From NCBI GenBank assembly GCA_015233245.1, contig JADFYB010000001.1:23386-87385 (forward strand): a DNA stretch of 64,000 nucleotides. The letters run 5' to 3'. The translations under genes and the position numbers were made by a program. The DNA is from Nitrospirota bacterium (GTDB taxonomy: Bacteria > Nitrospirota > Thermodesulfovibrionia > Thermodesulfovibrionales > Magnetobacteriaceae). The notes beneath the pieces were generated by a model that was not told the origin of the DNA, made no database searches, and saw nothing but the letters and a program-made list of their open reading frames with translations. Shown here piece after piece: positions 46,097 through 63,407 of the stretch; positions within the stretch are counted from its first letter, which is position 1; every line of letters starts with the position of its first letter.

Positions 46097-46876
46097 TTAA
46101 GTGTGTTCTCCCCTTAATCTTTTTTCAGCGATCCTCACATATTGCGGTTCTTTTTCGATTCCAATCCAGTTCCGGCCATATTTTTGAGCTACAACAGCAG
46201 TTGTTCCACTTCCCAAAAATGGGTCCAAGACAATATCATTCTCATTTGAGCTTGCTAAAATGATCCTTTTTAACATCTCTTCTGGTTTTTGAGTTGGATG
46301 CAAGGCTTTTCCGTCTTCGCCTCTTGCTCGTTCTTTGCCCTGAACCAACGGCATTTCCCATAAATCACGCATTTGCTTCTCTTCCCCATTTTTTTGTTTT
46401 TCCGGATTAATTGCCTTTATTTTTTCATAATTAAAAGTCCACCCGGAGCCTTTAACTGCCCAAACAACAAATTCCGTTGAATGGGTAAAAACACGTTTTG
46501 TCATATTTGGCATTGCGTTTGTCTTATACCATGTGATGATATTGTTTATCTTAAAATCGAGTTGTTTTAAAACAATTATTAATTCAGCTATATTGTGGTA
46601 ACTACACGCAATATACATTGATCCCGTTTCTTTTAAGACACTATGACAGCCAGCAATCCATTTTCTGGTAAACTGCAAATAGTCGGGTGCTGTCATCTTG
46701 TCCCAGTGTTCATTGACCATGTACCAATCTCCTCCGGTTTTATTCCCTTTCCATTTCAAACCGTTACCGGAAAGGTTATAAGGCGGATCGGCAAAAATAA
46801 GATCAATTGAGTTTTCATCAATTTCATGGTTTAAACATTCTATACAATCGTCGTTGTAAATTATATTTTTTTTCAT
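46097..46876 (-). CDS. Beta-class N6-adenine/N4-cytosine DNA methyltransferase (second MTase of the R-M system)
   Basis: Motif IV is IFADPPYN. Near the C-terminus, HPTQKPEEML and the AdoMet motif VLDPFLGSGTT follow in beta-class order. I prefer the ATG at 46876, 2 nt after the endonuclease stop. Confidence 0.9.
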   Translation of the reverse strand: MKKNIIYNDDCIECLNHEIDENSIDLIFADPPYNLSGNGLKWKGNKTGGDWYMVNEHWDKMTAPDYLQFTRKWIAGCHSVLKETGSMYIACSYHNIAELIIVLKQLDFKINNIITWYKTNAMPNMTKRVFTHSTEFVVWAVKGSGWTFNYEKIKAINPEKQKNGEEKQMRDLWEMPLVQGKERARGEDGKALHPTQKPEEMLKRIILASSNENDIVLDPFLGSGTTAVVAQKYGRNWIGIEKEPQYVRIAEKRLRGEHT

Positions 46877-46878
46877 AA

Positions 46879-48696
46879 CTAAAAAGTAAGGCTTTCCTGC
46901 CAGGATGTAATAGTCTTTTGTACACTTTTTACCCATTCATTTGAATCTGATAAGACCTCCGACTTTTCTAAAATCTTATCATAGAGACGAAAAAGGTCAT
47001 TATGTTTTAAAAGCTTTCCGTGTTTTTTTATCTCAACAAGTATTTTTAAAAGCTCAATGAAATTATTAATTGATAACGGAACAATTTTTTGTTTACGCCC
47101 CTCATATTCATATTTAATTGCAGTCCAAAAAGTATTTATTGTGTCTCTGTGCAGTTTTGGAGCAACGAATAAGCAATAAGAACTTTTATCAATATGTTTG
47201 TTCTCGAAATCTCTTAAATGACGCATTACCGGCTGTCCTTCATTGTACCACTGATTACGTCCTGTAAGCATTGTAACCTCACAAATAGCATTGTAGTTTT
47301 CATAAAAACATTCAATGTCCGGAATATTTGCAGGGGCAGTAAAGGTTGGCTCATTATCATCGCCCACGGGATAATTCGGTTTGATTTTCAATGCATCATT
47401 TAGCGCATTAAGTCCAAGCGATAAAAGTTTTTCTAATAAAATTGGCCTATCATCAGCCTTAAAGATATTTTCTAAATCGTTAATGCATATTTTTATTTGC
47501 TCAATTTCTTGTGTTTTTTGTTGGTTTTGTTTATCTTGCAGTTCCCTTCGATAGTTTCGTAAATCACTAATAAATCTTTTTAAACCATCCTCCTCTAAAT
47601 CATTGTAATTCAAAAACGACTTTGGTGTTATTCCTGTTTCCTTTTCGTACAACCTTATGTCGTCTATTAGCGTTACAGCAATTTCAATAAGTTTTTCAAT
47701 AGTTTCCCATGGCAGTTCGGGTTTGGAAATGTTGGAAATATACTCTATATAATCCTTTTTTGAGATAAAAACTTTTGATTGTGCATTATCAAAATTAAGC
47801 AGGTTTTTAATTTCTATTGACCGTCGTGGCTCTAAATCAATATAAACACCTCCTCCTCGGATGTAAATATAACGTGTCAAACGAAAATATCTAATTGCAT
47901 TATCTCCATAATCTTTTAGGTTTTTTAAGAGTTTTTGAATTTTTGTAGTATCTGTTGTCTGTAAAAATTCTTCTGCAAAAACATATCTATATTTACTAAA
48001 AATAGTTTTTTGTTCCTGCCTGGTTTTACCTTTTAGTTTTTCTCTCAACGAAATAATTTTTTCGGAATACGAGTCTATGTCTTTATAATTAACAAGTGTT
48101 GGACAAAATAAAGAAAATTCCTCCTTACTAATTCCCTTTTCTTTTTCTCTTAAAATCCCTGATTTTTTATTTACTTTTTGAATAAGGTGAAGGATACCGA
48201 TAAACGGTTTTATGTCGTATCCGTCTTTAAGGTTATAATCATCGCTATCAGGATTTGGTATTTGCCACTTTATAAAACTTCTAAAAAAAATCTCTCCAAG
48301 ATCAAAGTCATCATTTAAAAATAGTTTGCCTAAACTTGTAATAGAAATTTTTTTATCTTTTAGTACAACAAATCCAAATTTCTTAAGCGGATTTATAGAC
48401 TGCCTGCCTCTCATTGCAGGATCTTCATAGTTTTTAGCAATAAAAATCTTTTCAGCCTCTTCAAAAGAAATTTTTCTAGTTGGATCATCAATCAAATCAA
48501 TGTATGTTTGCGATAATCCATTATAAAATTGATTATTTCCAAAGCCGTATATTCTTTCTTTAATCAAAAGAATCTGGTATTTTCTTTGGTTTTCTAAATC
48601 CCATTTGCAATTTCCAAGTTGATTTAAAACGATCAAGAAATCTCTTAATCGCTCAGGATTTCTCAGAGTTGTTGTTATTGACCATGTTTTTTTCAT
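46879..48696 (-). CDS. AlwI/BstNBI/PleI/MlyI-family type IIS restriction endonuclease (or nicking enzyme)
   Basis: 605 aa. Several blocks match my recollection of N.BstNBI. INPLKKFGFVVL...ISITSLGKLFL...FIKWQIPNP matches VAPMKTYGFVFV...LRITEAGKML...LVKWQYPS. AIRYFRLTRYIYIRG matches TTRYFRYTGLFVARG. PDIECFYENYNAICEVTMLTG matches PDMEIIYEDFIVLGEVTTSKG. YCLFVAPKL matches YCLFIAPEI. The comparison is from memory, not a search. Confidence 0.75.
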   Translation of the reverse strand: MKKTWSITTTLRNPERLRDFLIVLNQLGNCKWDLENQRKYQILLIKERIYGFGNNQFYNGLSQTYIDLIDDPTRKISFEEAEKIFIAKNYEDPAMRGRQSINPLKKFGFVVLKDKKISITSLGKLFLNDDFDLGEIFFRSFIKWQIPNPDSDDYNLKDGYDIKPFIGILHLIQKVNKKSGILREKEKGISKEEFSLFCPTLVNYKDIDSYSEKIISLREKLKGKTRQEQKTIFSKYRYVFAEEFLQTTDTTKIQKLLKNLKDYGDNAIRYFRLTRYIYIRGGGVYIDLEPRRSIEIKNLLNFDNAQSKVFISKKDYIEYISNISKPELPWETIEKLIEIAVTLIDDIRLYEKETGITPKSFLNYNDLEEDGLKRFISDLRNYRRELQDKQNQQKTQEIEQIKICINDLENIFKADDRPILLEKLLSLGLNALNDALKIKPNYPVGDDNEPTFTAPANIPDIECFYENYNAICEVTMLTGRNQWYNEGQPVMRHLRDFENKHIDKSSYCLFVAPKLHRDTINTFWTAIKYEYEGRKQKIVPLSINNFIELLKILVEIKKHGKLLKHNDLFRLYDKILEKSEVLSDSNEWVKSVQKTITSWQESLTF

Positions 48697-48700
48697 AGTA

Positions 48701-50503
48701 TTAGTTTACTTTACAATAAAAAATACGCTCTGCGTTACCATCGCCATTGCTCTTTCCAGTACTGAAGGCCTTGTAATCTCTTTCAAAAATTTCAACCTCT
48801 CCTTTATTTAACAATATTTGCAAAATATCATTATCACTCATTCTGGCATTTGAACGTCCATCTTTAGAATCGCCCGTATTATTATAAGACAATAGAATAT
48901 GTTTACAATTTGCATTTTTAATTAAGTCATCAAATGCTTGAATGGCATTTTTTAGACAATATAAACTTTTGATGTGTGAACGATCCATTTTTTTAGCTAC
49001 ACCCTCAACTGTTGGTTTTTTCCATTGCGCTACATTTTCTAATAAATGATACGCATCAGAATATTGACGAGAATTGTATGGCGGATCAATATAAAGAACA
49101 TCGCAAGTAATTTGTCTAATCAAAATGTTTGCATTCTCTTTATAAACCTCATTATTTCCATTATTTAGATAATCAATATCGGGGACTAATAACTTTATGG
49201 GTTGCAACATATCCAAATCTTTACGAAAAGCGTCATAATGTCCAACTGTATTTGCAACTTTATCTATAGCGTAAATTAAGGAACAGATAAGAATATTTTT
49301 TACTTCTTCTATTTTCTCTATTTTCTCTATCTCTTCGCGAATAGCCCCAATTTTTCTGGCATTTTCCAAAGAAAAATAAGTATTTCCAAAGTGCTCTGAA
49401 AAATAATTGTCTTGTTCAACTTGTAAGTTGTTAAGATAATGTATCTTTTCTGCAATATCTCTGACATTTATACTTGTGCCAAGGAATGCTCTTAGACATA
49501 CGTAATTGCTATATAGAAAATCATTAGAAATAACTCTTATTTCTGGTTTATTAAATCTTTCGCCAACAACACCGGTGCCAGCAAAAATATCGCAAAATGA
49601 TTTAATACTATTGCATTTTTCTATAACAATATCTTCAATAAAACCGAGTAATTTATATTTATTGCCTAAGTATCTTCGGTTGTGTAATTGAAAAGTATCT
49701 GCCCTAGCTTTAAGAAAGAGAGGATACGGTCTGTTAATTTTTTGTATGTTTGCATTATAAAGAGGCTTATCTATTTCCAATAGGTCAAACAAGGTAGTTT
49801 GAATCCCATCTGAAACATAATCAAGGCCGTTGTCTGAATCTTTTAAGTTTAAGTAAAAACTATAATGCTTGTTTTCAGAAATAATAATAAAATCAATTAC
49901 AGGGACACCCATTATTTCTCCTGCTTGCACAATCCTTGCAACAATTCGCTGATCTTTTTCACTTGGTATGGAATTACCGGATGGGTGGTTATGGACTAAA
50001 ATTATACTTGACGCATTTAATTTAGTTGCCGGATAAAAAATTTCTCTCGGATGGATTAGTGTTTTATCAAGTAAACCCACACTGACAATATCTTTTTTTA
50101 TTAAAACATTTCTTGCATTGAGATAGAGACAAATCAAATATTCCTTTTTTTTATCTCCTAAATCATAAGTCAAAGCAAAAGCATCATTTGAGTTTCTGAT
50201 AACAACGTCTCTGTCTTTATTCTCCTCATAGAATCTTTTCACCAAAGAAATTGCTGAAATAATTTGTAATGCTTTCGCTTGCCCAATTCCTGAAATCTCT
50301 AATAAGTCATCAACAGTAATAGTTAGAAAATTCTTGCTAAATCTCCTAATAATATGTTCTGAAAGTTGCCTGACATTTTTACCTTTTATTCCACTGCCTA
50401 ATATAATTGCTAAAAGATCGCTTTTAGAAAGTGCATCTGCTCCTTTTTGTATAAATAGCTCTCTTGGGCGGTCAACCTTTGGAATATCTTTAATTTTCTG
50501 CAT
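48701..50503 (-). CDS. Fusion protein: full RadC (HhH + JAB/MPN domain) plus D12-class (Dam-like) N6-adenine DNA methyltransferase
   Basis: Residues 1-220 are RadC-like: DRPRE, LLAIILGSG, ISGIGQAKAL and the JAB motif ILVHNHPSGNSIPSEKD. Residues ~260-600 are D12 MTase: RRYLGNKYKLL, the AdoMet motif FCDIFAGTGVVG and the catalytic LYIDPPYN. It is one uninterrupted 600-aa ORF, and no Met lies near the domain junction. Confidence 0.85.
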   Translation of the reverse strand: MQKIKDIPKVDRPRELFIQKGADALSKSDLLAIILGSGIKGKNVRQLSEHIIRRFSKNFLTITVDDLLEISGIGQAKALQIISAISLVKRFYEENKDRDVVIRNSNDAFALTYDLGDKKKEYLICLYLNARNVLIKKDIVSVGLLDKTLIHPREIFYPATKLNASSIILVHNHPSGNSIPSEKDQRIVARIVQAGEIMGVPVIDFIIISENKHYSFYLNLKDSDNGLDYVSDGIQTTLFDLLEIDKPLYNANIQKINRPYPLFLKARADTFQLHNRRYLGNKYKLLGFIEDIVIEKCNSIKSFCDIFAGTGVVGERFNKPEIRVISNDFLYSNYVCLRAFLGTSINVRDIAEKIHYLNNLQVEQDNYFSEHFGNTYFSLENARKIGAIREEIEKIEKIEEVKNILICSLIYAIDKVANTVGHYDAFRKDLDMLQPIKLLVPDIDYLNNGNNEVYKENANILIRQITCDVLYIDPPYNSRQYSDAYHLLENVAQWKKPTVEGVAKKMDRSHIKSLYCLKNAIQAFDDLIKNANCKHILLSYNNTGDSKDGRSNARMSDNDILQILLNKGEVEIFERDYKAFSTGKSNGDGNAERIFYCKVN

Positions 50504-53568: not shown

Positions 53569-55194
53569 TTATTTTTTAATACCTTTTTCAATAAGCCTCA
53601 GATTAAACAGAGCATCTTCATATCCTGGGCGTAGTTGGATGGCCTTTTTGAAGTATCCAGAGGCCTCCTCTTTGTTTCCTTTAACAATCATAGCAGTGCC
53701 AAGGCCGTTATACGCCTCAGGTAAATTAGGTTTTAGTTTGAGAGCTATATTATAGTATAAAATACTCTTGTCAGCCTGTCTGAGCCGTACCAGTGCATTT
53801 GCATAGTTTACGTTGGCTTCTACATAGATGGGATTAATTTCCACCGCTTGTTTAAAATATCCGACAGCCTCATCTGACTTACCCATCGAGATAAGACTAG
53901 CTCCGAGGTTATTTAAAATCACAACGTTATCTTTTGTTACTGCTAAGGTATGTTTAAATAGCGTAACAGAGTTTTGCCAGTAGTAAACCTGTGTTTTGGA
54001 AAGCACTACGCAAAACAAAAGCACTATAAACGCTAAGACAGAGGTCAGAGCTTTTTTAGCGTTGGTTTTTGGCTCAGGTATTGACGTTACCACAATGGCA
54101 AACAGCCCTATATAGGGGATGTATGTAAATCTGTCAGCCATTGACTGATTTCCAACTTGTATAAGCCCGATTACCGGTAGCATTGTAATAACAAACCAAA
54201 ACCATCCGGTAAAAATGTATGGCGCCTTCTTAATAGTTAAAACGGCAATGGCTGACACCACCACAAGTGCCAATAAAGCCAACACCGGTTGTAATAGGGG
54301 TATCGTGCGGGGAAGGGGATACAGGCAAGCCAGATCAACCGGATAGAATATCTTATAAACATACTTAACATACGACACCAGCGCGTTTTCAAGTCTTAAA
54401 GAAATTGGGAGATTTTCCAAAGTGGCAACAGCTCCGACCTCCTTTTGGGCAAAAAATGTGACAATTGCAGTAATCATCGATATTGCAAAAAATGGAATTT
54501 TTTCATAAAACAGACTTTTATTAACTTTTAAAAAAGTTGTGATGACCCCTTCAAACTTAAACCTGCCACATGGCCATACGTCAAGCAAAAGGAGAGAAAC
54601 AGGGAGAGTAACGGCCATTGGTTTTGACATTATGCTTAAAATAAAGGCAATTGTAACGTATATATATTTTTTCAGTGACGGTTTTTTAGCATAACTAAAA
54701 TACAGAGCAACTGCAGCAATATAAAAAAATGCCGTGAGCACATCCTTTCGTTCAGCTATCCATGCAACCGATTCCACGTGCATGGGGTGGAGAGCAAACA
54801 AGGCAGCAAGCGCTCCGCTTCTTAGCATATCAGTGTTTATCAGGTAGAAGGCGTAAAACAGCAGGATTGAGTTAAGAATGTGAATAATGAGATTTGTTAT
54901 ATGATGGCCGCCAGCGTTAAGCCCGTACATTTCTATATCCAGCATATGTGTAAGCCACGTAAGTGGCTGCCAGTAAAAAGAATAAGTCGTTTTAAATGCC
55001 CAGAGCACATTATCAAGTGTTAAACCGTGAATTACCCGTTGATTCTCGAATATGTACTTGGTATCGTCTAAATTAACAAAATCAAAACCCCTGACTTCTA
55101 TGAAAACAAACACAGTTAAAACAATTATAAAAATGGCTGCTGTGATAATATCTCCGGAGCTGCCGGTTGATATTTTTTTTAAAAAATCTTTCAT
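53569..55194 (-). CDS. TMTC-like GT-C membrane protein with C-terminal TPR repeats (paralog of 17716..19359)
   Basis: 541 aa with FVNLDDTKYIFENQRV, HPMHVESVAWIAERKDVLTAF and a C-terminal TPR region. Confidence 0.75.
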   Translation of the reverse strand: MKDFLKKISTGSSGDIITAAIFIIVLTVFVFIEVRGFDFVNLDDTKYIFENQRVIHGLTLDNVLWAFKTTYSFYWQPLTWLTHMLDIEMYGLNAGGHHITNLIIHILNSILLFYAFYLINTDMLRSGALAALFALHPMHVESVAWIAERKDVLTAFFYIAAVALYFSYAKKPSLKKYIYVTIAFILSIMSKPMAVTLPVSLLLLDVWPCGRFKFEGVITTFLKVNKSLFYEKIPFFAISMITAIVTFFAQKEVGAVATLENLPISLRLENALVSYVKYVYKIFYPVDLACLYPLPRTIPLLQPVLALLALVVVSAIAVLTIKKAPYIFTGWFWFVITMLPVIGLIQVGNQSMADRFTYIPYIGLFAIVVTSIPEPKTNAKKALTSVLAFIVLLFCVVLSKTQVYYWQNSVTLFKHTLAVTKDNVVILNNLGASLISMGKSDEAVGYFKQAVEINPIYVEANVNYANALVRLRQADKSILYYNIALKLKPNLPEAYNGLGTAMIVKGNKEEASGYFKKAIQLRPGYEDALFNLRLIEKGIKK

Positions 55195-55215: not shown

Positions 55216-56268
55216 TTAATTAAAGCACTGCGGGTCTTCTGACAGATAATCACCCGTCTTAGCATACGCTATGGCTCTGCATCCGCCGCACTGCCACCTA
55301 AGTTTACACCCTCTGCATTTACCTTTTAATAAGTCCCTGTTTCTGAGTTCCTGCAAAATCTCAGATTTCCATATCTCAGTTAAATCCGTATCGTGCACAT
55401 TTCCAAGAGAGACCGGAAGCCGTCTGCATGGATACACTGTGCCATCGGTGTCAACGCATATTCCATTGTAGCCAATTGAACAGCCGCCTAAAAGGAGCGG
55501 GTTTAGTTTTCCAAAAAAACATTGCCACAAAGGGTCCCGATACGTCTTTGATACCTCTCCATCTTTTTGATTTTCAGTATGTAAGTTTAATTTATAAAAT
55601 TCCCTGAACAGGCTTTTTACCTGTTTTGTTGTCAACATAGAATCAGTCAGCGTCAAAGCCCTCCCCCACGGCACAAGCCGTGAAAAGGCAAAACGCCGTA
55701 TATACGGAGTGGTAAGCTTAATTGTTTCTGTTAATGCCTTATAATTAATGTCTGATACGGTCATCATGGCAGTCACACTAATATTTTCCTCATTGAGTAT
55801 TTTTGCGCCATCAAGGGCCTTTTTAAATGAACCAACCCCTCTGATTTTATCATGAGTTTCCTCAGAGCCCTCAAAAGACACCTGTACAATGCGGCACCCT
55901 GACTCGTTCAGATGTTTTGCTAAATCTTTAGACATTACAGTCCCGTTTGAAAGCACTCTGACCGGATAGGCGCTCCTTTTAGCCTCCGCAAGTATTGAAA
56001 ATAAATGCTCTGACAGGAAAGGTTCTCCGCCGCTTATCTGAATTCTGCCTCTTTTGCGGATTGACTTTAAAAACCGGTTAAAGTTCTTTAATACATCCAT
56101 CAAATCGGATATCTCTGGTTCAGCAGCGTTTCCCTCCCTGTAGCAGTGTATGCAGTTAAGGTTACAGTCCTCAGTGATGTGCCACTGCAGGTAAAAAGGC
56201 CCGTCAAATCCCCACACTTTAAGCACAGAGTAATCTAATCTCCACCGCCACCACCACAGCCGCTGCAT
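55216..56268 (-). CDS. Radical SAM enzyme with C-terminal SPASM domain
   Basis: CX3CX2C is DCNLNCIHC. The GGE motif is ISGGEPF. The SPASM cysteines are GGCSIGYNGICVDTDGTVYPC and CRGCKLRWQCGGC...DPQC. The ATG at 56268 lies inside the 3' end of the upstream gene. A GTG 42 nt downstream is an alternative start. Confidence 0.85.
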   Translation of the reverse strand: MQRLWWWRWRLDYSVLKVWGFDGPFYLQWHITEDCNLNCIHCYREGNAAEPEISDLMDVLKNFNRFLKSIRKRGRIQISGGEPFLSEHLFSILAEAKRSAYPVRVLSNGTVMSKDLAKHLNESGCRIVQVSFEGSEETHDKIRGVGSFKKALDGAKILNEENISVTAMMTVSDINYKALTETIKLTTPYIRRFAFSRLVPWGRALTLTDSMLTTKQVKSLFREFYKLNLHTENQKDGEVSKTYRDPLWQCFFGKLNPLLLGGCSIGYNGICVDTDGTVYPCRRLPVSLGNVHDTDLTEIWKSEILQELRNRDLLKGKCRGCKLRWQCGGCRAIAYAKTGDYLSEDPQCFN

Positions 56269-57161
56269 CCGCCACTGTCTCCACCGCTATCGCCAGAGGA
56301 GCAGCCACTACAGCTGCTACCAGAGCCAATGTCGCTTGAAGAACAGCCACTGCATCCGCCGCTGCTGCCCTGTAAAGCCCCTCCGGGATAATAAATTGCA
56401 TCCGATATGCCGCTAAATATCGTACCAGCTAACACTGCCATCCCCAGCACCGCAACCGCATAACTTAAAGCCGGGTCATAATGCCCATCTGAACCTGATA
56501 CGTGGTTAAAATCTGCTATTTTATTCTCCAGATGGGTTAAATATGCCTTGCCTCTATTTGTTTTTACTGTTGTCCTTTGCATTACATATGAAGATATAAA
56601 AGCAATTGCTGGTACTAAGAGTGAAAACAGCATCATCCCTTCGCCGGCAGGAAACTCCAGATATAAATTAGCCGCTGTAAGGGCAATAATTGAAGAGACG
56701 GCAAGTTTACGCAGGGTTTTGCAAAAGCTGTCTGTTTCTTTTAAGTCCTTTACCAAACCCTTTACTGTAAGAGAGCGGAGTGTATCATATTCAAAGCGAT
56801 TTAGCTCATCACGCTGAGCAAATATTCCGCCAATTGAGGACTTTACCCGCACTGTATCTATTAACGCATTTTCAGCTCTGTCTAAGCCCTCAGTGTTTCC
56901 CGTAGCTGTCAAATCTTTTGCCTCATCAACAACAATATAGCCTCTTTGTATTAAATCAAACAAACAAACCGTGACGGCATGATTTCTGCCTTTTTTCATA
57001 TAAGCCGCTTCATACGGAACGGGTTGAGATTTGTCAGCCGGATAGTCAGAGGAGATTTTCCTGTACTTAAATATCCAATAGGCTGCTAAAAATATCCAAA
57101 TCAGTGATGTGAGTATAAATATGTTGTGTGCTCCTGAGTTTTGTACAGGCGTTAAGAGCAT
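56235..57161 (-). CDS. TIGR04222-like membrane protein with a C-terminal Cys/Gly/Ser-rich tail
   Basis: It has about 4 TM helices. PYEAAYMKKGRNHAVTVCLFDLIQRGYI resembles the L.pyElAyLaGG block I associate with TIGR04222 proteins. The last 49 aa are GGALQGSSGGCSGCSSSDIGSGSSCSGCSSGDSGGDSGGCSGCGGGGGD. I prefer the second Met (57161), which removes the overlap with the upstream gene. Confidence 0.6.
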   Translation of the reverse strand: MLLTPVQNSGAHNIFILTSLIWIFLAAYWIFKYRKISSDYPADKSQPVPYEAAYMKKGRNHAVTVCLFDLIQRGYIVVDEAKDLTATGNTEGLDRAENALIDTVRVKSSIGGIFAQRDELNRFEYDTLRSLTVKGLVKDLKETDSFCKTLRKLAVSSIIALTAANLYLEFPAGEGMMLFSLLVPAIAFISSYVMQRTTVKTNRGKAYLTHLENKIADFNHVSGSDGHYDPALSYAVAVLGMAVLAGTIFSGISDAIYYPGGALQGSSGGCSGCSSSDIGSGSSCSGCSSGDSGGDSGGCSGCGGGGGD

Positions 57162-57162
57162 T

Positions 57163-58269
57163 CTATCTGGCACACCATGGAATGATAATATTAGCAGCAA
57201 CACAACATATGCCCACCACCTGAAACATTATTCTGTCCAGAGCTAATGAAAGCTCTTTATCCTCCATGCGGGCGTAGTAGCTGGAAAGCAGAGCGGCAGC
57301 TATGGATATAAAAATAGTGAAGAGACCGACTCCTGCCACATGGTCCACCAGTCCGAATGAACCAGAGGTGGGCAAAAGTGAATTAGCAAGGTATGTGTTA
57401 GCCACAGCGCCAAAGTATGCGCCCGTAGGTAAAGCAAAGCGAGGCCCTACATCGGAGGGTTTGATAAAGAAGCTGGAAAGTGTAAGCAACAGTGCGGCAA
57501 ACAAAGAGAGAAAGATTTTGAGATAAAATCCGAAATCTATCCGCTTAATCCTGACTGCAGCGATATACTGTGAGAATACCTTTTTGCTGTCAGGGGAAAC
57601 TCTCGGATCACCATAACTTGATTTATAAGTATGCGTTTTAACTACATTGCTGTAGCCTGTGATTTTAAAGCCGGGAATATTCAACCTTGAACTGATATTT
57701 GAAGTTTCATCGGCAACATATCTGAGCTTTGTACCATCTCTTGAGCCATCCTCCACGTAGATATTGAGCATGTGGTCTTCAATCGGCACACGGGCTGTAT
57801 CGAAAAACTTGATTATCTTTGCAGAGATACGGTATCTCTGGTAATTGCTGCCGTCTTTGCCATGATAATCCTCCAAAAGCTCTTTTTTGTTTACCACGCC
57901 ATCAACGACTACAAGTTTTCCTCCGGGGTCAAGCTTAGCATCGCCTTGCCATGTGAACCATATATAGAAATTAACGCTCCACATGCTGTCTTTAATTGAC
58001 AGGTTGTCAACGTCTTCAACGTAGGTACCTATTTTAACCGTGGCATAGTTGCCTGTTGCAGGCAGTGGATCCGGTGGTGTTCGTCCCGGTTCAGCTCCGG
58101 TGGGGCTCATCCTCATTTTATGTTTTGCATCTGAAAGCGCCCGGTTGTGATACATCATTGATGCTGAAAAAACTATGATTAACGTATAAAGAGCAGCAAT
58201 TATCAGCGAATATGTGAGAACTCGCTGCTTTTTTTCATGGCTCAGATTTCGCAGTGGTGATAAAAACAT
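57163..58269 (-). CDS. Pentameric ligand-gated ion channel (Cys-loop superfamily)-like membrane protein
   Basis: 368 aa. After an N-terminal anchor, a beta-rich domain reads VKIGTYVEDVDNLSIKDSMWSVNFYIWFTWQGD, the pLGIC beta1-beta2 pattern (V.v...i..i......f....y....W.D). ARVPIEDHMLNIYVED is like the FP.D.Q.l.i loop. A pre-M1 R...F.FY is followed by four TM helices in M1-M2-M3 / loop / M4 arrangement. Recognised by eye only. Confidence 0.55.
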   Translation of the reverse strand: MFLSPLRNLSHEKKQRVLTYSLIIAALYTLIIVFSASMMYHNRALSDAKHKMRMSPTGAEPGRTPPDPLPATGNYATVKIGTYVEDVDNLSIKDSMWSVNFYIWFTWQGDAKLDPGGKLVVVDGVVNKKELLEDYHGKDGSNYQRYRISAKIIKFFDTARVPIEDHMLNIYVEDGSRDGTKLRYVADETSNISSRLNIPGFKITGYSNVVKTHTYKSSYGDPRVSPDSKKVFSQYIAAVRIKRIDFGFYLKIFLSLFAALLLTLSSFFIKPSDVGPRFALPTGAYFGAVANTYLANSLLPTSGSFGLVDHVAGVGLFTIFISIAAALLSSYYARMEDKELSLALDRIMFQVVGICCVAANIIIPWCAR

Positions 58270-58492
58270 GTCTCCCTCCTTGTGCTATTAATTTTGATTT
58301 ATCTAAATTATTAAATAAACACTTTGAGCCACGGATTCATTTCCCCTCCGTTGTCTAAAAGTGGCTTATACTAATTTAACAGCACAATGAATGTCAACAT
58401 ACACGGTATCTTTTTGTTTTGTAGTCTGCCTCCGCAGAAATTTAAAATTTCATTAGCCTTTATTGGCAGATTAGCTGTATAATAGCACTGCT

Positions 58493-60460
58493 GTGAAGGG
58501 TTTAAAGTACGTTTTATACTCGTTAGGGCTTTTTGTCCTTGGGATGACAGTCTCTTCTGTTGTCTATTATTTAAAATATAAGGAATCGTTTATAGCAAAG
58601 TATCAGAAACTTCGGCAAAACAGGTTGTATGTTCCATGGGTTGAGGGTCAGATTGATTTTTCATGGCACATAAACAAATTCATAATGCCTGGGGCCGGTT
58701 TTTTAAATGATATAATAATTTTTAATACCGCCGTGTTTGCGCTTTTAATTCCGCTTTCTTACATGGTAATGGATAGGGCTGATAACAAATACGGTACGTC
58801 TAAGGTGTCAGAGTTATTTTTCAGTATATGGGAGGCAAAACTGTTGCCTTTTTTACTTGCCTTCAGTTTGCTGTACAGTGTTGTATTGAAGTTTTTCATT
58901 CGTGAGTTGCCTGATAGTTATCTGTGGGCAGTGTCGGCGTGGACTGCACTGATAATATTTTCATTTATACTGTGGACATCCCTTAGTTTTCTTATCAAGA
59001 TGAGGCTTTTTGTTTCAGACGCAGGTTTTGCACTTGACAGGCTGCTCAGCAAGGCATGGGATTGTGTGTTAAAAAAGAGAGTGAACAACAGATTTGCTCT
59101 GTTTGCCGAATCTCTCCAAAGCATTGGTGAAATGTTATCAAAAGAGGTAAAAGTCCATAACAGTAAAAACCTCGCAAAAACTCTCTCTGAGCTGCATCAC
59201 CTTGCCTCTTACTTATTAAAGTTAAGCACTGACGATGTCTCTGCTGCCTTTACAGCGGAGGACACTGTAACCTCAGAGGTTAATAAGTCTCCTGCAAATT
59301 TTCAGATAAACCTCCTTTTACCCTTGGAGCAAATTGCAAAAATACACTCTGAAGCTGCCATTTGCAACAACCCTGCAGTGTCTGCAATTATTGAGCGGTC
59401 AGCGGTCGGAATATTTTCTGACGTTTCATGTTGTAGCAATAACCCGGATCTGATAAAACGCTGTATAGAGATATTTTTTGAAATGTCTCAAAAATCACAA
59501 ACTCCTGAAACAGTTTTTTTATGGTTTACCGACTCTGTGTTCAGGAAAGAGGACTTCTCTTATGAATATCTTGATATTTTAAATGAATCCCTCGCTAAAT
59601 CTTTAAAAAATGCCGCATTAAAGGGTTCTCAGGAAACTATCGCTGCTTTTTTCAATGAACTTCGGCTGATGCCTGCCCCAGCCCCTTTTTCTGTTGAGAT
59701 TTATAATCAGACTCTAATTGAACTTAATCGTAAAAAGTATATAGAAATGAGCGACGGACTCTCTGTTTACTCATCACTTGAAGATCTCCAAAGAAAAGCC
59801 ACAGAGGTTACAACTATTAACATGCTCGAACAATGGTCTGAGTCTTTCACTGCTTTTCACCAAAAAGTATCCTCTTACTATAAAAAAGACAAATTCAGAC
59901 GGATTGATGAAATAAAAACGGATATATTGGAAAATGTACGGGCAAGGCTAAAAGGTATTTATGTTTCAAGAATAATTTTTAGCCTTTTAGCATACTCAGT
60001 ATTCACTGAAAACCAGACATTACTTAAAATAATATGGAAAGTACTGGATGATAAAAGCGCCAGCCTCTCTGGTTCTATAATTGCAGGGTCTGAGCCGGAA
60101 ATTTTTGTCAAAATGTATATTGACGGCGATTTCCACATAGATGGGGTTGTTTTTATAGACGATTCTGACCTGTGGCACAAAGCCGCACGAATATCCTTAT
60201 TGTTGATTTTGGTTAAAATGGCAGACAACCGTCATCTGATGAAAACTGATGCTGCTAACTTTAAGCCGGCATATCATCAAGAGAGCTGTAACGAAATAGA
60301 TGCCATAATAGAGGCCGGCAAGGTGCTGATGTCAGTCAATCTACCGGTGTTGAGTGTTGTAGAAAACTCAGACTTAATTCCGGATATTTTACAAAGTGAG
60401 GCCATTCCATTTCTTATTTCAATAAAACATTCGATAAAGGAAAGGTCAGTTAGCAGATAG
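58493..60460 (+). CDS. Hypothetical protein: four N-terminal TM helices plus a ~450-aa helical soluble domain
   Basis: 655-aa ORF starting at a GTG. No motif recognised. It stands alone between a divergent and a convergent neighbour. Confidence 0.5.
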   Translation: MKGLKYVLYSLGLFVLGMTVSSVVYYLKYKESFIAKYQKLRQNRLYVPWVEGQIDFSWHINKFIMPGAGFLNDIIIFNTAVFALLIPLSYMVMDRADNKYGTSKVSELFFSIWEAKLLPFLLAFSLLYSVVLKFFIRELPDSYLWAVSAWTALIIFSFILWTSLSFLIKMRLFVSDAGFALDRLLSKAWDCVLKKRVNNRFALFAESLQSIGEMLSKEVKVHNSKNLAKTLSELHHLASYLLKLSTDDVSAAFTAEDTVTSEVNKSPANFQINLLLPLEQIAKIHSEAAICNNPAVSAIIERSAVGIFSDVSCCSNNPDLIKRCIEIFFEMSQKSQTPETVFLWFTDSVFRKEDFSYEYLDILNESLAKSLKNAALKGSQETIAAFFNELRLMPAPAPFSVEIYNQTLIELNRKKYIEMSDGLSVYSSLEDLQRKATEVTTINMLEQWSESFTAFHQKVSSYYKKDKFRRIDEIKTDILENVRARLKGIYVSRIIFSLLAYSVFTENQTLLKIIWKVLDDKSASLSGSIIAGSEPEIFVKMYIDGDFHIDGVVFIDDSDLWHKAARISLLLILVKMADNRHLMKTDAANFKPAYHQESCNEIDAIIEAGKVLMSVNLPVLSVVENSDLIPDILQSEAIPFLISIKHSIKERSVSR

Positions 60461-61039: not shown

Positions 61040-63286
61040 TTATGTAAGCCCTAAAGTTATCACAACCTCAGCACCTCCATCAACATTTCCCACTGTAAGG
61101 CTACCGCCCATATTTGTCTCAATTATGGTTTTTGACATGTAAAGACCGATCCCTGTGCCTTCAGTTCCTTTAGTTGTAAAAAATGGTTCAAATATTTTCT
61201 CTAATACACCATCAGGAATTCCACCACCATTGTCTCTGACTGAAACGATAACTTGAGATTTATCCTCAGTATAGGTAATATTAATTTCTATAATGCCTTG
61301 TATTTCATGAGCATTTTCCCTTCTTGTGATTATCGCATCTTTTGAGTTATTCAAAATATTAAGCAGCACCTGCTTAAATTCATTGGGATAGCCTAATGTG
61401 GAAATTAACACATCCTGTCCAGCTTTAACAGAAATATCTATCGTACTCTTTATAAAAATATGCATAAATATTGATAGCAGTTCATCTACAGCAGCTTTTA
61501 CATCAAACAAAACTTTTTCCTTTGACGGTATAAAGAAGTTTCGGAAATCATCTATTGTTTTTGACATAAAATCAATTTGCCGCATCGTGGACACAACAAT
61601 ATTCTCAATATACTTATCATCAACCTCCCCATAGGTATAAGCATCTTTTAAATCCTGTATAGTTATTCCGACAGAGTTTATTGGTTGTTTCCACTGGTGG
61701 GCAATAAGCCCAATCATCTCACCCATGGACGCCATCTTGGATTGTTGAATTAACAAATGCTCTTGCGTTAAACGTCTGTTTGTCTCCAAAGCTACACGCT
61801 CCTCAAGAGTCCTGTTTAACTCCTTTAACTCCTCCTCCATTCGTTTACGCTCAGTGATGTCGTGGGCGATTCCTACTGTGCCGATGACCTCACCATTTTC
61901 ATCCTTAACAGGTGTCTTGATGGTCTCAATAAAATGCAATCGTCCATTTGCATCCACATATGACTCTTCTATATGCTTTCTCACACCAGCTGCCATTACG
62001 GCTTGATCGTCAGCAGTATGTCTCTCAGCTAAATCCCAGGGCCAGATATCGAAATCGGTTTTTCCGGTAATTGCATTGGCAGGCATATTAGCAGCCACAC
62101 GGTGCGCTTCATTGTCTATAATAAATCTGCCTTCCCTGTCCTTGATCCAGGCAAGATCCGGCACATTGTCTATAAGGGTGGACAGCATGGTATAGCTGCG
62201 GTATTGTTCCTTTTTTTCTTTAAGCTTGCGCTCGGTAATATCATAGTTTGTTCCAAGCATGCGGACAGGGGTTCCCTCAGAGTTCCGTATAACCATGCCG
62301 TTGGCTTTTATGTGTTTTACTGTCCCGTTTGGATGCAGTACTCTGAATTCCGTATCCCACTCTTTTTCGCCCTTTAAAGCCGCATTGCACTCTTCAACGA
62401 TCGTATCGCGGTCATCAGGATGCAGGCCATTCATCCATGCCTCAACGCCTCCCGGAAACGTTTCCCACGTAAGACCGTAAAGTGTAAGCATCTGGTCATC
62501 CCAGGTCATTATGTTATTAGTAACGTCCCAGTCCCATATACCAAGGTTAGCAGAGCGGGTTGCTAACTCAAGGCGCTGCTTAACAGAAAGGAGTTCTTGT
62601 TCCGCCTGCTTACGCTCGGTAATGTCGGTACAGGAGCCGATCCACTCCAGAATGCTTCCGTCTTTTCTAAAGACAGGAAATCCACGTGCCAGGAAATCTC
62701 GATAAACTCCGTCATGTCTGCGCATGCGGTATTCTATCTCGTAGAAGTTTTTTTCAGTCACAGCCTTTTTCCATACCTGCATTGTGTGTTCAACATCATC
62801 AGGATGCAGGGCTTTCACCCATCCTGAACCTTTAACCTCTTCATAGTCCTGACCGCTAAATTTCTTGAATGACGGCATGTCCTCTACAACTTCTCCCTCA
62901 GCATTAGTCACCCATATAATTTGGCCTGTTATGTTGATATAAGACTTCAGGCGCATTTCGCTTGCAATCAATGCCTCCTCAGCAAGCCTGCGCTTAGCAT
63001 CGGCAGCATTAATAGAAAAGAAATATTCCCTTATAAAATGAACACCCAGCAGCATTAGGCAGGAGATAGTAAAGGCAATTAGTTCCGATACATCCATGCT
63101 CATTTGTCTGCCAGCGGAAAGTATATAAAAAAACAATACTATACGGCGAAAAGCCATCAAAAGCATTGCGGCAGAGATTAATATCCATGCTGTTTTTCGT
63201 CCCGTTAAGCGAATCAAAGACAGAGCATATAATCCGACTGATAGCTGCAACCCGATAGATAACAGATATATAATACTGGTAATCAT
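61040..63286 (-). CDS. Multi-PAS sensor histidine kinase
   Basis: The N-terminus has TM helices, followed by three PAS/PAC units (repeated W..G.HPDD and DIT/DITERK blocks). The H-box is [10 protein letters not shown], the N-box is NILNNSKDA and the G-box is [10 protein letters not shown] prefer the ATG at 63286 (AAGAGAGG RBS), because the track start at 63352 would overlap tRNA-Leu. Confidence 0.9.
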
Positions 63287-63325
63287 AGTGCCTCTCTTAA
63301 ATAATAAAGCGGATGGGTATATATA

Positions 63326-63407
63326 TGCCGACGGGGGGACTCGAACCCCCATAGGTTACCCTACACGCCCCTCAAACGTGCGTGTCTACCAGTTCCACCA
63401 CATCGGC
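63326..63407 (-). tRNA. tRNA-Leu (anticodon GAG), class II with long variable arm, no encoded CCA
   Basis: The reverse complement is GCCGATGTGGTGGAACTGGTAGACACGCACGTTTGAGGGGCGTGTAGGGTAACCTATGGGGGTTCGAGTCCCCCCGTCGGCA. The acceptor stem is 7 bp, the anticodon stem is CACGT/GCGTG, the loop is TTGAGGG, the variable arm is 13 nt and the T-loop is GGTTCGAGTCC. Length is 82 nt. Confidence 0.9.

What the first reader, a model, noticed from the sequence alone, without database searches (positions are those of the whole stretch)
55216..58269. Operon linking a pLGIC-like channel, a Cys/Gly/Ser-tailed membrane protein and a radical SAM/SPASM enzyme
Four minus-strand genes sit back to back. They are a pentameric ligand-gated-channel-like protein (57163..58269), a TIGR04222-like membrane protein with a Cys-rich tail (56235..57161), a radical SAM/SPASM enzyme (55216..56268) whose start lies inside the tail-coding region, and, 21 nt later, a TMTC-like GT-C/TPR protein (53569..55194).

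SPASM-domain radical SAM enzymes are known for modifying Cys-containing peptides or proteins. Examples are sactipeptide and ranthipeptide thioethers, SCIFF, and anaerobic sulfatase formylglycine. None of the usual partners is present here: no sulfatase, PqqA, mycofactocin precursor or short precursor peptide.

The nearest Cys-rich candidate substrate is the 49-aa tail of the preceding membrane protein. A post-translationally cross-linked or metal-binding tail attached to a membrane protein, and genetically tied to an ion-channel homolog, would be a new kind of system. I am not aware of any described function for TIGR04222-type proteins.
Basis: partly seen in the sequence, partly recalled or inferred. 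Interest (0 to 1): 0.75.

Follow-up and report, generated by a model that had tools for sequence, protein, structure and literature searches.

The report
Radical-SAM partner of Cys-tailed membrane proteins
A membrane protein ending in a cysteine-repeat tail sits next to a dedicated radical-SAM enzyme, a pairing found in twelve bacterial phyla, so the tail is very probably chemically modified; the ion-channel and glycosyltransferase neighbours are local additions.

Summary
The four minus-strand genes exist. They encode a GLIC-fold channel homolog, a TIGR04222 membrane protein with a Cys/Gly/Ser tail, a radical SAM/SPASM enzyme and a TPR membrane protein.

The conserved unit is only two genes: the tail protein and the rSAM. 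In all 35 informative loci carrying an ortholog of this rSAM (at least 41% identity, 12 phyla), a gene ending in a C-x-x-C repeat tail (…CGGCGG) lies upstream on the same strand, abutting the rSAM in 33. None of 49 loci of the nearest paralog clade has one.

The partner's architecture varies widely, down to a 53-aa TM-plus-tail peptide. Only the tail is constant, so the tail is the likely substrate.

In aerobes, the same tails sit next to MNIO (DUF692) enzymes. A 2025 paper already proposed TIGR04222 tails as MNIO substrates. I found no description of the rSAM pairing.

The rSAM's closest named peptide-maturase models are the ACGX-system rSAM (uncharacterised) and SbtM. The MNIO's closest is BufB. 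SbtM and BufB both make thiooxazoles from Cys, which suggests a chemistry but does not show it.

The rSAM start inside the tail is probably an ORF-calling artefact; the likely start is GTG 56226. The pLGIC and TPR genes are lineage-specific, although unrelated channel genes recur in that upstream slot.

The parts
58368..58397 (-). Sigma-70-like promoter (TTGACA-18-TAGTAT, 10/12), about 100 nt upstream of the first gene. Candidate operon promoter.
   Evidence: This is a consensus match only. The number of such sites in the region is not above the shuffled expectation.
57163..58269 (-). pLGIC-fold membrane protein (368 aa) with an extra N-terminal TM helix. A lineage-specific neighbour, not part of the conserved module.
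   Evidence: AF2 pLDDT 86.9. Foldseek top hits are GLIC at E 2e-19, TMt 0.75. Weak sequence similarity to GLIC. Found next to the module only in the window and L003. Stand-alone gene in Methylospira.
56235..57161 (-). TIGR04222-type membrane protein (308 aa): TM1, a soluble helical/beta-hairpin domain, TM2-TM3, a short broken hydrophobic segment and a disordered Cys tail. Proposed substrate protein.
   Evidence: TIGR04222 56.1 bits against cutoff 43. AF2 secondary structure. Homologs across phyla carry the same tail.
56238..56384 (-). Tail-coding segment (residues 260-308): …GGCSGCSSSDIGSGSSCSGCSSGDSGGDSGGCSGCGGGGGD. It has three CSGC pairs. Proposed site of modification.
   Evidence: Sequence. 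pLDDT below 50, i.e. disordered. A C-x-x-C repeat tail is the only element common to all partner architectures.
55216..56226 (-). Radical SAM/SPASM enzyme (336 aa from the revised GTG start). It has CX3CX2C plus a 7-Cys SPASM domain and no N-terminal RRE domain. Proposed tail maturase.
   Evidence: Pfam. Invariant cysteines and ortholog starts. NCBIfam best hits are ACGX 182, SbtM 177.5 and AhbD 175 bits, all below cutoff. Nearest solved relatives are SkfB, CteB and PqqE.
53569..55194 (-). Polytopic membrane protein with C-terminal TPR repeats (possible GT-C/PMT-like). A lineage-specific neighbour.
   Evidence: TPR strong; PMT_2 E 0.004, below threshold. Present downstream only in the window, L001 and L003.

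Best explanation
The functional unit is a two-gene module. The first gene encodes a membrane-anchored protein of the DUF2207/TIGR04222 superfamily whose C-terminus is a disordered 'Cys-every-third' tail: C-x-x-C repeats with x = Ser or Gly, ending …CGGCGG or …CGGCGGGGD. The second gene is translationally coupled to it and encodes a dedicated radical SAM/SPASM enzyme.

Proposed mechanism:
1. The enzyme cleaves SAM at its CX3CX2C cluster.
2. The 5'-deoxyadenosyl radical abstracts a hydrogen from a tail residue.
3. The two auxiliary SPASM clusters take up the electrons.
4. The tail cysteines are converted post-translationally.

My first choice for the product is 5-thiooxazole heterocycles (-4 Da per Cys). 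My second choice is S-C thioether cross-links (-2 Da each). Either would give a membrane-tethered, probably cytoplasm-facing, thiophilic-metal-binding or redox-active appendage.

The module appears to be the anaerobic counterpart of the TIGR04222-MNIO (DUF692) pairs of aerobes.

What is shown: the gene pair, its conservation, and the tail as the only common denominator. What is inferred: that the tail is modified, the chemistry, the topology and the physiological role.
For: 1. Conservation. All 35 informative loci with an rSAM at least 41% identical to the window's have a Cys-repeat-tailed ORF upstream on the same strand. They come from Nitrospirota, Chloroflexota, Omnitrophota, Planctomycetota, Auribacterota, Spirochaetota, Lentisphaerota, Elusimicrobiota, Muiribacteriota, Bacillota, Actinomycetota and Verrucomicrobiota. 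In nearly all loci measured, the tail stop lies 31-51 nt before the conserved Q28 codon of the rSAM; the exceptions are 80 nt in L006 and 365 nt in L030, and L038 has one intervening gene.

2. Control. None of 49 loci of the nearest paralog clade (about 40% identity) has such an ORF or any conserved neighbour.

3. Variable partner architecture, constant tail:
- signal peptide + DUF2207-N domain + TIGR04222 body + tail (about 490 aa);
- TIGR04222 body + tail (the window, and L028 and L038);
- signal peptide or zinc-ribbon anchor + DUF2207-N + one TM + tail (about 280-360 aa);
- a 53-aa TM + tail peptide (L036).

4. Recurrence with other enzymes. Two further rSAM/SPASM clades sit next to the same tails: L089/L112/L205, about 31% identical to the window enzyme, and L157, 39% identical. 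Elsewhere an MNIO gene takes the same position: L088, L211 and six distinct metagenome loci. MNIOs are Cys-modifying enzymes, and TIGR04222 tails were proposed as their substrates (PMC12452194).

5. Chemistry lead. The top-scoring named models for the tail-adjacent rSAMs are the uncharacterised ACGX-system rSAM, SbtM and the heme synthase AhbD, within a few bits of each other. SbtM ranks first for L089 and second for the window enzyme and P0137. The best model for the L088 MNIO is BufB (254 bits). SbtM and BufB are the two enzymes known to convert Cys to thiooxazole (PMC11002830; PMC11626156).

6. Solved relatives. The nearest solved structures by sequence are the Cys-thioether-forming peptide maturases SkfB and CteB.

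7. Topology. Single-TM partners have an exported N-domain, or a cytoplasmic zinc ribbon followed by an anchor, with basic residues after the last TM. That places the tail in the cytoplasm, where rSAM enzymes work. In the AF2 model of the window protein, the fourth hydrophobic segment is broken into helices of 10, 4 and 7 residues, which suggests three TMs.
Against: There is no biochemical evidence; everything rests on gene neighbourhood.

- All NCBIfam scores are far below the family cutoffs (177.5 against 350 for SbtM). AhbD, a heme synthase, scores equally well, so the thiooxazole chemistry is only a lead.
- The enzyme has no RRE or leader-binding domain, and the partners share no leader. 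Substrate recognition is therefore unexplained.
- Many Cys-tailed proteins have no adjacent maturase (PMC12452194). The tail may therefore function unmodified, for example as a plain metal-binding CxxC array.
- The published AF2-based view places TIGR04222 tails in the periplasm. That conflicts with my topology inference, and in the window protein the fourth hydrophobic segment is fairly hydrophobic.
Confidence: 0.7

Rival explanations
1. One reading: all four genes form one system, in which a modified or metal-binding tail protein works with the pLGIC-like channel and perhaps the GT-C/TPR protein.
For: - Spacers of 1, 8 and 21 nt, one promoter-like site and no internal terminator.
- The upstream slot holds an ion channel of three unrelated families. 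It is pLGIC-fold in the window and L003. It is an RCK K+ channel in L001, L008, L009 and L019. It is an Ion_trans_2 K+ channel 185 nt upstream in a cyanobacterium.
- YQR-1 keeps the same tail-rSAM-TPR synteny but carries a K+ channel where the window has the pLGIC.
Against: - The pLGIC gene is absent from 33 of the 35 rSAM-tail loci, and the TPR gene from 32.
- In Magnetominusculus LBB02 the pLGIC homolog lies on a different contig from the module.
- The pLGIC family is widespread in genomes and is a stand-alone gene in Methylospira.
- No channel gene was detected in any metagenomic tail locus, although many of those contigs are short.
- The K+-channel cases within Magnetobacteriaceae may be a single inherited event.
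Confidence: 0.15
2. The rSAM acts on a small molecule (for example a tetrapyrrole, like AhbD or NirJ) or on a protein encoded elsewhere. The Cys tail would then be an unmodified CxxC metal- or Fe-S-binding scaffold that merely cooperates with it.
For: - AhbD and NirJ2 score as high as the peptide maturases (175-194 bits).
- The enzyme has no RRE domain.
- Many Cys tails occur without any maturase gene nearby (PMC12452194).
Against: - The scores are far below the AhbD cutoff of 500.
- The paralog clade that scores best to AhbD has no tail partner.
- Strict stop-to-start coupling with the tail gene holds in 12 phyla.
- The rSAM is replaced by MNIO, an unrelated class that modifies peptide cysteines, at the same position.
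- The nearest solved relatives, SkfB and CteB, modify peptide cysteines.
Confidence: 0.12
3. The adjacency in the window is a chance juxtaposition or an annotation artefact, with a low-complexity ORF end next to an unrelated rSAM.
For: The reported start overlap is probably an artefact of taking the longest ORF. Gly/Ser/Cys low-complexity sequence can arise from simple DNA repeats.
Against: 35 of 35 loci against 0 of 49 controls. The tail is conserved at the protein level across phyla. The tail protein matches TIGR04222 above its cutoff.
Confidence: 0.02

Closest known systems
TIGR04222-MNIO (DUF692, MbnB/TglH/ChrH family) gene pairs, proposed in PMC12452194 (Microb Genom 2025)
   Same: Same substrate class: TIGR04222 membrane proteins with C-terminal Ser/Gly tails interspersed with Cys. 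The maturase gene sits in the same place, directly after the tail gene (L088 has overlapping stop and start). The status is also the same: inferred from neighbourhood, with no chemistry shown.
   Different: Here the enzyme is an oxygen-sensitive radical SAM/SPASM protein, unrelated in fold and cofactor to MNIO. There is no PME-type 2/SCO6045_C partner gene. The hosts are mostly lineages usually regarded as anaerobic. The rSAM pairing extends to partners that are not TIGR04222 at all (DUF2207-N + 1 TM + tail, and a 53-aa peptide). The paper does not mention radical SAM partners.
SbtM (TIGR04082), the thio(seleno)oxazole-forming rSAM/SPASM maturase
   Same: rSAM/SPASM architecture, action on Cys in a ribosomal product, and one of the top-scoring named models for the tail-adjacent rSAMs.
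   Different: The score is 177.5 against a cutoff of 350. Only model positions 199-516 are matched, so the N-terminal ~200-residue region of SbtM is absent. The substrate is a membrane-protein tail rather than a short Sec/Cys peptide, and no SECIS context is present.
ACGX-repeat system rSAM (TIGR04340) and other periodic-Cys rSAM systems (SCIFF/CteB, Cys-every-fifth CefB, PapB ranthipeptides)
   Same: An rSAM/SPASM enzyme next to a product with regularly spaced cysteines. ACGX is the top NCBIfam hit for the window enzyme (182 bits). CteB is among the nearest solved relatives.
   Different: All scores are below cutoff. Those substrates are short soluble leader-core peptides, and the enzymes usually have an RRE domain. 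Here the period is three (C-x-x-C), the repeats lie at the extreme C-terminus of a membrane-anchored protein, and there is no RRE.
Bufferins (BufA/BufB/BufC)
   Same: Cys-derived modification made on a protein rather than a small peptide, with metal (Cu) chelation as the function. The MNIO next to TIGR04222 tails is closest to BufB (PMC11626156).
   Different: Bufferins are Sec-exported soluble periplasmic proteins with DUF2063 partners. Here the product stays membrane-tethered, is probably cytoplasm-facing, and is made by an rSAM. Metal binding is untested.
GLIC/ELIC-type prokaryotic pentameric ligand-gated ion channels (for the first gene)
   Same: Beta-sandwich extracellular domain plus a four-helix TM domain. 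Foldseek E 2e-19 to GLIC.
   Different: No match to the Pfam Neur_chan models. About 17% identity. An extra N-terminal TM helix. The ligand and pentameric state are unknown.

Membership tests
TIGR04222 domain-containing membrane protein | Score above the curated NCBIfam cutoff for TIGR04222 | tested here: met
   56.1 bits against cutoff 43, covering model positions 2-229 of 229.
TIGR04222 domain-containing membrane protein | Low-complexity Ser/Gly C-terminal region interspersed with Cys | tested here: met
   The tail has 6 Cys and ends CSGCGGGGGD. The same feature is seen in homologs from cyanobacteria, Armatimonadota, Bacillota and Verrucomicrobiota.
Radical SAM / SPASM subfamily | CX3CX2C SAM-cluster motif and Radical_SAM Pfam score above the gathering threshold | tested here: met
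   C35, C39 and C42 are invariant. PF04055 scores 75.3 bits against 29.5.
Radical SAM / SPASM subfamily | SPASM domain with seven Cys (CX9-15GX4C … CX2CX5CX2-3C … C) for two auxiliary clusters | tested here: met
   PF13186 scores 49.1 bits against 21.5. C263, G276, C281, C318, C321, C327, C330 and C348 are invariant in 17 sequences.
SbtM thio(seleno)oxazole maturase (TIGR04082) | Equivalog score of at least 350 bits over the full-length model | tested here: not met
   177.5 bits, and only model positions 199-516 are matched.
ACGX-system rSAM (TIGR04340) | Score of at least 400 bits, with an ACGX-repeat peptide partner | tested here: not met
   182.3 bits. The neighbouring product carries CSGC/CGGC repeats on a 308-aa membrane protein, not an ACGX peptide.
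AhbD / NirJ heme-pathway rSAMs | Equivalog score of at least 500 bits | tested here: not met
   AhbD 175, NirJ2 151 bits.
Anaerobic sulfatase-maturating enzyme | Family score above cutoff, with a sulfatase substrate gene nearby | tested here: not met
   The family is not among the top 25 hits for the window enzyme. For P0137 it scores 74 bits against 349. No sulfatase gene is seen among the genes flanking the rSAM in the window region examined.
Classical RiPP system (leader peptide plus RRE-containing maturase) | Short precursor with a leader, and an RRE/PqqD-like domain in or beside the maturase | tested here: not met
   The rSAM core starts about 20 residues from the N-terminus, with no extra domain. 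The intergenic spacers of 1, 8 and 21 nt leave no room for a peptide ORF. The substrate candidate is a 308-aa membrane protein.
TIGR04222-MNIO module (PMC12452194) | MbnB_TglH_ChrH (PF05114) gene adjacent to the TIGR04222 gene | tested here: not met
   In the window the adjacent gene is an rSAM/SPASM. MNIO adjacency is seen in L088, L211 and metagenome loci.
Pentameric ligand-gated ion channel (first gene) | Cys-loop-receptor fold: beta-sandwich extracellular domain plus M1-M4 helices | tested here: met
   AF2 gives strands 76-243 and then four helices at 247-367, pLDDT 86.9. Foldseek to GLIC gives E 2e-19, TMt 0.75.
Pentameric ligand-gated ion channel (first gene) | Match to the curated sequence models (Neur_chan_LBD/memb, NCBIfam LGIC) | tested here: not met
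   No Pfam hit. LIC 17.8 bits against 280, LGIC_1 16.8 against 500.
Pentameric ligand-gated ion channel (first gene) | Pentameric assembly and ligand-gated conductance | not testable with these tools
   Only a monomer could be modelled.
GT-C glycosyltransferase (PMT/TMTC-like; fourth gene) | PMT_2 or another GT-C model above threshold | tested here: inconclusive
   PMT_2 17.8 bits against 26.1, E 0.004. PDB sequence hits cover only the TPR region.

The most novel reading that the evidence does not exclude
The radical-SAM-modified Cys tail protein is a membrane-tethered metal or redox sensor that works with an ion channel as an auxiliary or gating subunit. This would explain why three unrelated channel families occupy the gene slot directly upstream of TIGR04222-type tail genes in different lineages: pLGIC-fold, RCK-type K+ channel and Ion_trans_2 K+ channel. 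It would be a post-translationally heterocyclised protein appendage controlling ion flux.
Probability: 0.12. Interest if true: 0.85.

Novelty: new variant of a known kind. Interest (0 to 1): 0.68.

Why it matters
TIGR04222/DUF2207 proteins are thousands of uncharacterised bacterial membrane proteins. Their Cys tails have only recently been suggested, without chemistry, to be modified by the O2-dependent MNIO enzymes.

A separate, oxygen-sensitive enzyme class (radical SAM/SPASM) is locked to the same tails in twelve phyla, most of them represented here by uncultured lineages usually regarded as anaerobic. This has three consequences:

1. It independently strengthens the case that the tails are modified.
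2. It points to convergent recruitment of two unrelated maturase families onto one substrate. This parallels SbtM and BufB, which both make thiooxazoles.
3. It extends RiPP-type chemistry from diffusible peptides to the C-termini of integral membrane proteins.

It also gives a simple, testable pair for discovering the chemistry: one tail, one enzyme, and no leader or accessory gene in the window. It defines an rSAM clade that matches no curated NCBIfam model.

Tried and rejected
- The search for related loci with a 16-sequence TIGR04222 alignment on metagenome contigs failed because no stretch was conserved enough. I replaced it with a DNA pattern for CGGCGGCGG followed by a stop codon. My 'TRR' stop also matched TGG, so much of the output was unrelated Cys/Gly-rich or out-of-frame sequence. 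After filtering, 29 tail ORFs remained.\n- Foldseek of the TIGR04222 model against the PDB gave nothing (best E 0.9).\n- The PDB sequence search for the fourth gene matched only TPR proteins.\n- Look-up of P0016 (cyanobacterium) found no record.\n- Literature searches for 'DUF2207 + radical SAM' and 'ACGX + radical SAM' returned nothing.\n- Considered and rejected: a sactipeptide/ranthipeptide or SCIFF system in the strict sense (no short precursor, no RRE); anSME (no sulfatase, low score); AhbD (score below cutoff, and the paralog clade that scores best to AhbD lacks the tail partner); a C-terminal sorting signal of the PEP-CTERM type (the tail extends 25-45 residues beyond the TM and basic cluster).\n- I did not use the search of protein representatives, because sequences taken from loci cannot be submitted to it.

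Full report

- Gene 1 (57163..58269) has no Pfam hit and only marginal NCBIfam hits to LIC/LGIC models. Its AlphaFold2 model (35-sequence alignment, pLDDT 86.9) shows a beta-sandwich followed by four helices. It matches GLIC at Foldseek E 2e-19 with target-normalised TM-score 0.75. So it has the pLGIC fold, plus an extra N-terminal TM helix.
- Gene 2 (56235..57161) passes the TIGR04222 cutoff (56.1 bits against 43). It ends in …GGCSGCSSSDIGSGSSCSGCSSGDSGGDSGGCSGCGGGGGD.
- Gene 3 is a radical SAM/SPASM enzyme. CX3CX2C and seven SPASM cysteines are invariant among 17 relatives.
- Gene 4 has strong TPR repeats but only a sub-threshold PMT_2 match.

Spacing is tight. A 10/12 promoter-like site precedes gene 1, and there is no terminator-like site between the genes.

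One detail is probably wrong. Orthologs of the rSAM begin at MLKVWGFDG, which aligns to residue 15 of the long ORF. The likely start is therefore GTG at 56226, 8 nt after the stop of the tail gene, not inside the tail. The closest relatives, L001 and L003, show the same 8-9 nt spacer.

**Source.** Identical or near-identical proteins are annotated from Nitrospirae MAGs related to magnetotactic Magnetobacteriaceae.

**What is conserved.** I fetched the contigs of rSAM homologs and scanned one genome per species with an rSAM alignment (80 loci).

The loci fall into two groups. In every informative locus whose rSAM is at least 41% identical to the window's (35 loci; two more are cut by a contig end), an ORF ending in a Cys-repeat tail lies upstream on the same strand. 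In nearly all loci measured, the tail's stop codon is 31-51 nt before the conserved Q28 codon of the rSAM, which implies a stop-to-start distance of about -8 to +12 nt. The exceptions are 80 nt in L006 and a 326-nt gap in L030, and L038 has one intervening gene.

These loci come from Nitrospirota, Chloroflexota, Omnitrophota, Planctomycetota, Auribacterota, Spirochaetota, Lentisphaerota, Elusimicrobiota, Muiribacteriota, Bacillota, Actinomycetota and Verrucomicrobiota.

The 49 loci of the next clade (36-40% identity; best NCBIfam hit AhbD for its representative P0204, below cutoff) have no such ORF and no conserved neighbour at all. This clade serves as a built-in negative control.

**The tail is the common denominator.** The partner proteins differ greatly:

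- Magnetobacteriaceae mostly have signal peptide + DUF2207-N-like domain + TIGR04222 body + tail (about 490 aa).
- The window protein, its 89% identical relative (P0002), a spirochaete (L028) and a verrucomicrobial locus (L038) have TIGR04222 body + tail.
- Anaerolineae, Omnitrophota, Elusimicrobia and others have signal peptide (or zinc ribbon + anchor) + DUF2207-N domain + one TM + tail (about 270-360 aa).
- A Muiribacteriota locus (L036) has just a 53-aa TM + tail peptide.

Nothing but a TM segment followed by [C-S/G-S/G]n ending in CGGCGG(GGD) is shared.

The pLGIC-like gene accompanies the pair only in the window and in Ca. Magnetomonas plexicatena. The TPR gene does so only in those two and in YQR-1.

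**A second enzyme class at the same position.** I looked at TIGR04222 homologs that were not chosen through the rSAM.

- A Bacillota locus has a distinct rSAM/SPASM, about 32% identical to the window enzyme, with overlapping stop and start (L089).
- An Armatimonadota locus has instead an MbnB/TglH/ChrH-family MNIO with overlapping stop and start, plus an SCO6045_C protein (L088).
- A cyanobacterial locus likewise has MNIO + SCO6045_C nearby (L211).
- A verrucomicrobial locus has neither (L212).

A maturase-blind DNA pattern scan of metagenomes for CGGCGGCGG followed by a stop gave 29 tail ORFs. Three had an rSAM and eight (six distinct) had an MNIO immediately downstream. The rest had none, or sat on contigs too short to tell.

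**Literature.** PMC12452194 (2025) reports that 40% of more than 1,000 signal-peptide-less Cys proteins preceding MNIO genes are TIGR04222 proteins. It proposes their C-terminal Cys-rich segments as MNIO substrates. It notes that a third of genomes with TIGR04222 lack any MNIO. It does not mention radical SAM partners. Full-text searches for DUF2207 or ACGX together with radical SAM found nothing.

No NCBIfam model (release of June 2026) reaches its cutoff on the window enzyme or on the other two tail-adjacent rSAMs scanned, P0137 and L089. In the sources I could search, the rSAM pairing appears to be undescribed.

**Mechanism.** The proposal is that the rSAM/SPASM enzyme modifies the tail cysteines. 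It rests on:

1. strict and ancient gene coupling;
2. the tail being the only shared element of the partners;
3. replacement of the rSAM by a different enzyme class that modifies peptide cysteines;
4. the nearest solved relatives being the Cys-thioether maturases SkfB and CteB.

For the chemistry, the top named models for the tail-adjacent rSAMs are the uncharacterised ACGX-system rSAM, SbtM and the heme synthase AhbD, within a few bits of each other. SbtM ranks first for L089 and second for the window enzyme and P0137. The adjacent MNIO is closest to BufB. SbtM and BufB are the two enzymes reported to convert Cys into thiooxazole, and bufferin thiooxazoles chelate copper. I therefore rank thiooxazole formation first and thioether cross-linking second. 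This ranking is inference: all family scores are well below their cutoffs.

**Topology.** The single-TM partners have an exported N-domain and basic residues after the last TM. Two have a cytoplasmic N-terminal zinc ribbon followed by an anchor. Both arrangements place the tail in the cytoplasm.

In the window protein, AF2 predicts three long TM helices. The fourth hydrophobic stretch is broken into helices of 10, 4 and 7 residues, and the tail is disordered. This suggests a cytoplasmic tail, in contrast to the periplasmic placement suggested in PMC12452194. The point is unresolved.

**The ion-channel question.** The pLGIC link as stated is not conserved. The pLGIC-fold family is widespread (48-88% identity across several phyla, with no Pfam model) and is a stand-alone gene in Methylospira.

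However, the slot directly upstream of TIGR04222-type tail genes holds an RCK/Ion_trans_2 K+ channel in four other Magnetobacteriaceae MAGs (L001, L008, L009, L019). One of these, YQR-1, shares the window's tail-rSAM-TPR synteny. The slot also holds an unrelated Ion_trans_2 channel in a cyanobacterium.

Three channel families in one slot is more than I would expect by chance, given how rare channel genes are. But the independent events are few, the other Magnetobacteriaceae loci examined (L004, L010-L018) lack a channel, and no metagenomic tail locus showed one. I could not test this further because the look-ups were exhausted. I keep it as the low-probability, high-interest reading.

The system is a new variant of known kinds: rSAM/SPASM Cys maturases, and the proposed MNIO-TIGR04222 pairs. 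It is an apparently anaerobic, radical-SAM version that also reaches beyond TIGR04222 to other Cys-tailed membrane proteins.

Noticed in passing
window 57163..58269; L001:182-1687; L008:2447-4012; L009:1904-3514; L019:153-1796; L211:3037-3816: The gene directly upstream of TIGR04222-type tail genes is an ion channel from three unrelated families. It is pLGIC-fold in the window and Magnetomonas. It is an RCK/TrkA_N + Ion_trans_2 K+ channel in four Magnetobacteriaceae MAGs. It is an Ion_trans_2 K+ channel in the cyanobacterium Aulosira. This looks like non-orthologous replacement within the same synteny.
   Followed up: partly
window 57163..58269: This pLGIC-fold protein belongs to a family with no Pfam match. 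The family is nevertheless 48-88% identical across Nitrospirota, Negativicutes, Desulfovibrionaceae, Magnetococcales, Magnetospirillum, Herbaspirillum and Methylospira. All listed members are about 370 aa; the window protein's model has an extra N-terminal TM helix. The high cross-phylum conservation is unexplained.
   Followed up: partly
window 56235..57161, compared with L001:1666-3135 and L003:6496-7992: The window's tail protein (308 aa) lacks the signal peptide and DUF2207-N-like domain that its closest relatives carry (489 and 498 aa). The gene now starts 1 nt after the pLGIC stop. The truncated form is kept in two genomes (P0001, P0002).
   Followed up: partly
L020:3320-4108, L022:2364-3119, L023:3377-4150, L025:3351-4163, L026:305-1153, L028:3238-3993, L038:4156-4971: A nucleotidyltransferase-fold protein of about 250-280 aa (weak NTP_transf_2 match) lies directly upstream of the tail gene, or between tail gene and rSAM in L038. 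It occurs in seven rSAM-tail loci from several phyla and may be a third component in those lineages.
   Followed up: partly
L029:2212-4095, L034:158-2065, L035:2264-4156, L037:2372-4114: In Elusimicrobia and Lentisphaerae loci, a full-length DUF2207-type paralog (about 580-635 aa, DUF2207_C hit, no Cys tail) sits immediately upstream of the short Cys-tailed DUF2207-N protein.
   Followed up: no
L090, L129, L142, L161, L203 (metagenome); P0011; L212:3465-4004: There is another Cys-tail architecture, with an N-terminal 'LWxRIxxF…D.PFS' domain. In L212 a separate gene immediately upstream of the TIGR04222 gene carries PF27765 (UCP032817-like), and the same family is precomputed on the ~480-530-aa TIGR04222 homologs. 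These loci have no adjacent rSAM or MNIO. In some, the TIGR04222-like part is a separate downstream gene.
   Followed up: no
window 46097..50503: A low-GC island (0.31-0.34) encodes an AlwI-type restriction endonuclease, an N6/N4 DNA methylase, and a RadC-JAB domain fused to a D12-class adenine methylase. It is probably a horizontally acquired restriction-modification cassette.
   Followed up: partly
window 63326..63407 and 61040..63352: tRNA-Leu(gag) on the minus strand overlaps the 5' end of the longest ORF of the PAS/histidine-kinase-like gene. That gene probably starts at an internal Met.
   Followed up: no
window 58493..60460 (+): A 655-aa predicted membrane protein is transcribed divergently from the operon. 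It matches nothing in Pfam or NCBIfam and is not found next to the module in other loci.
   Followed up: partly
L039-L087: The sister rSAM/SPASM clade (Nitrospirota, Syntrophorhabdaceae, Thermodesulfobacteriota) is 54-60% identical within the clade. The best NCBIfam hit for its representative P0204 is AhbD at 190 bits against a cutoff of 500. It has no conserved neighbour except a small downstream gene of unidentified family (~180-190 aa) in 13 loci. Its function is unassigned.
   Followed up: partly
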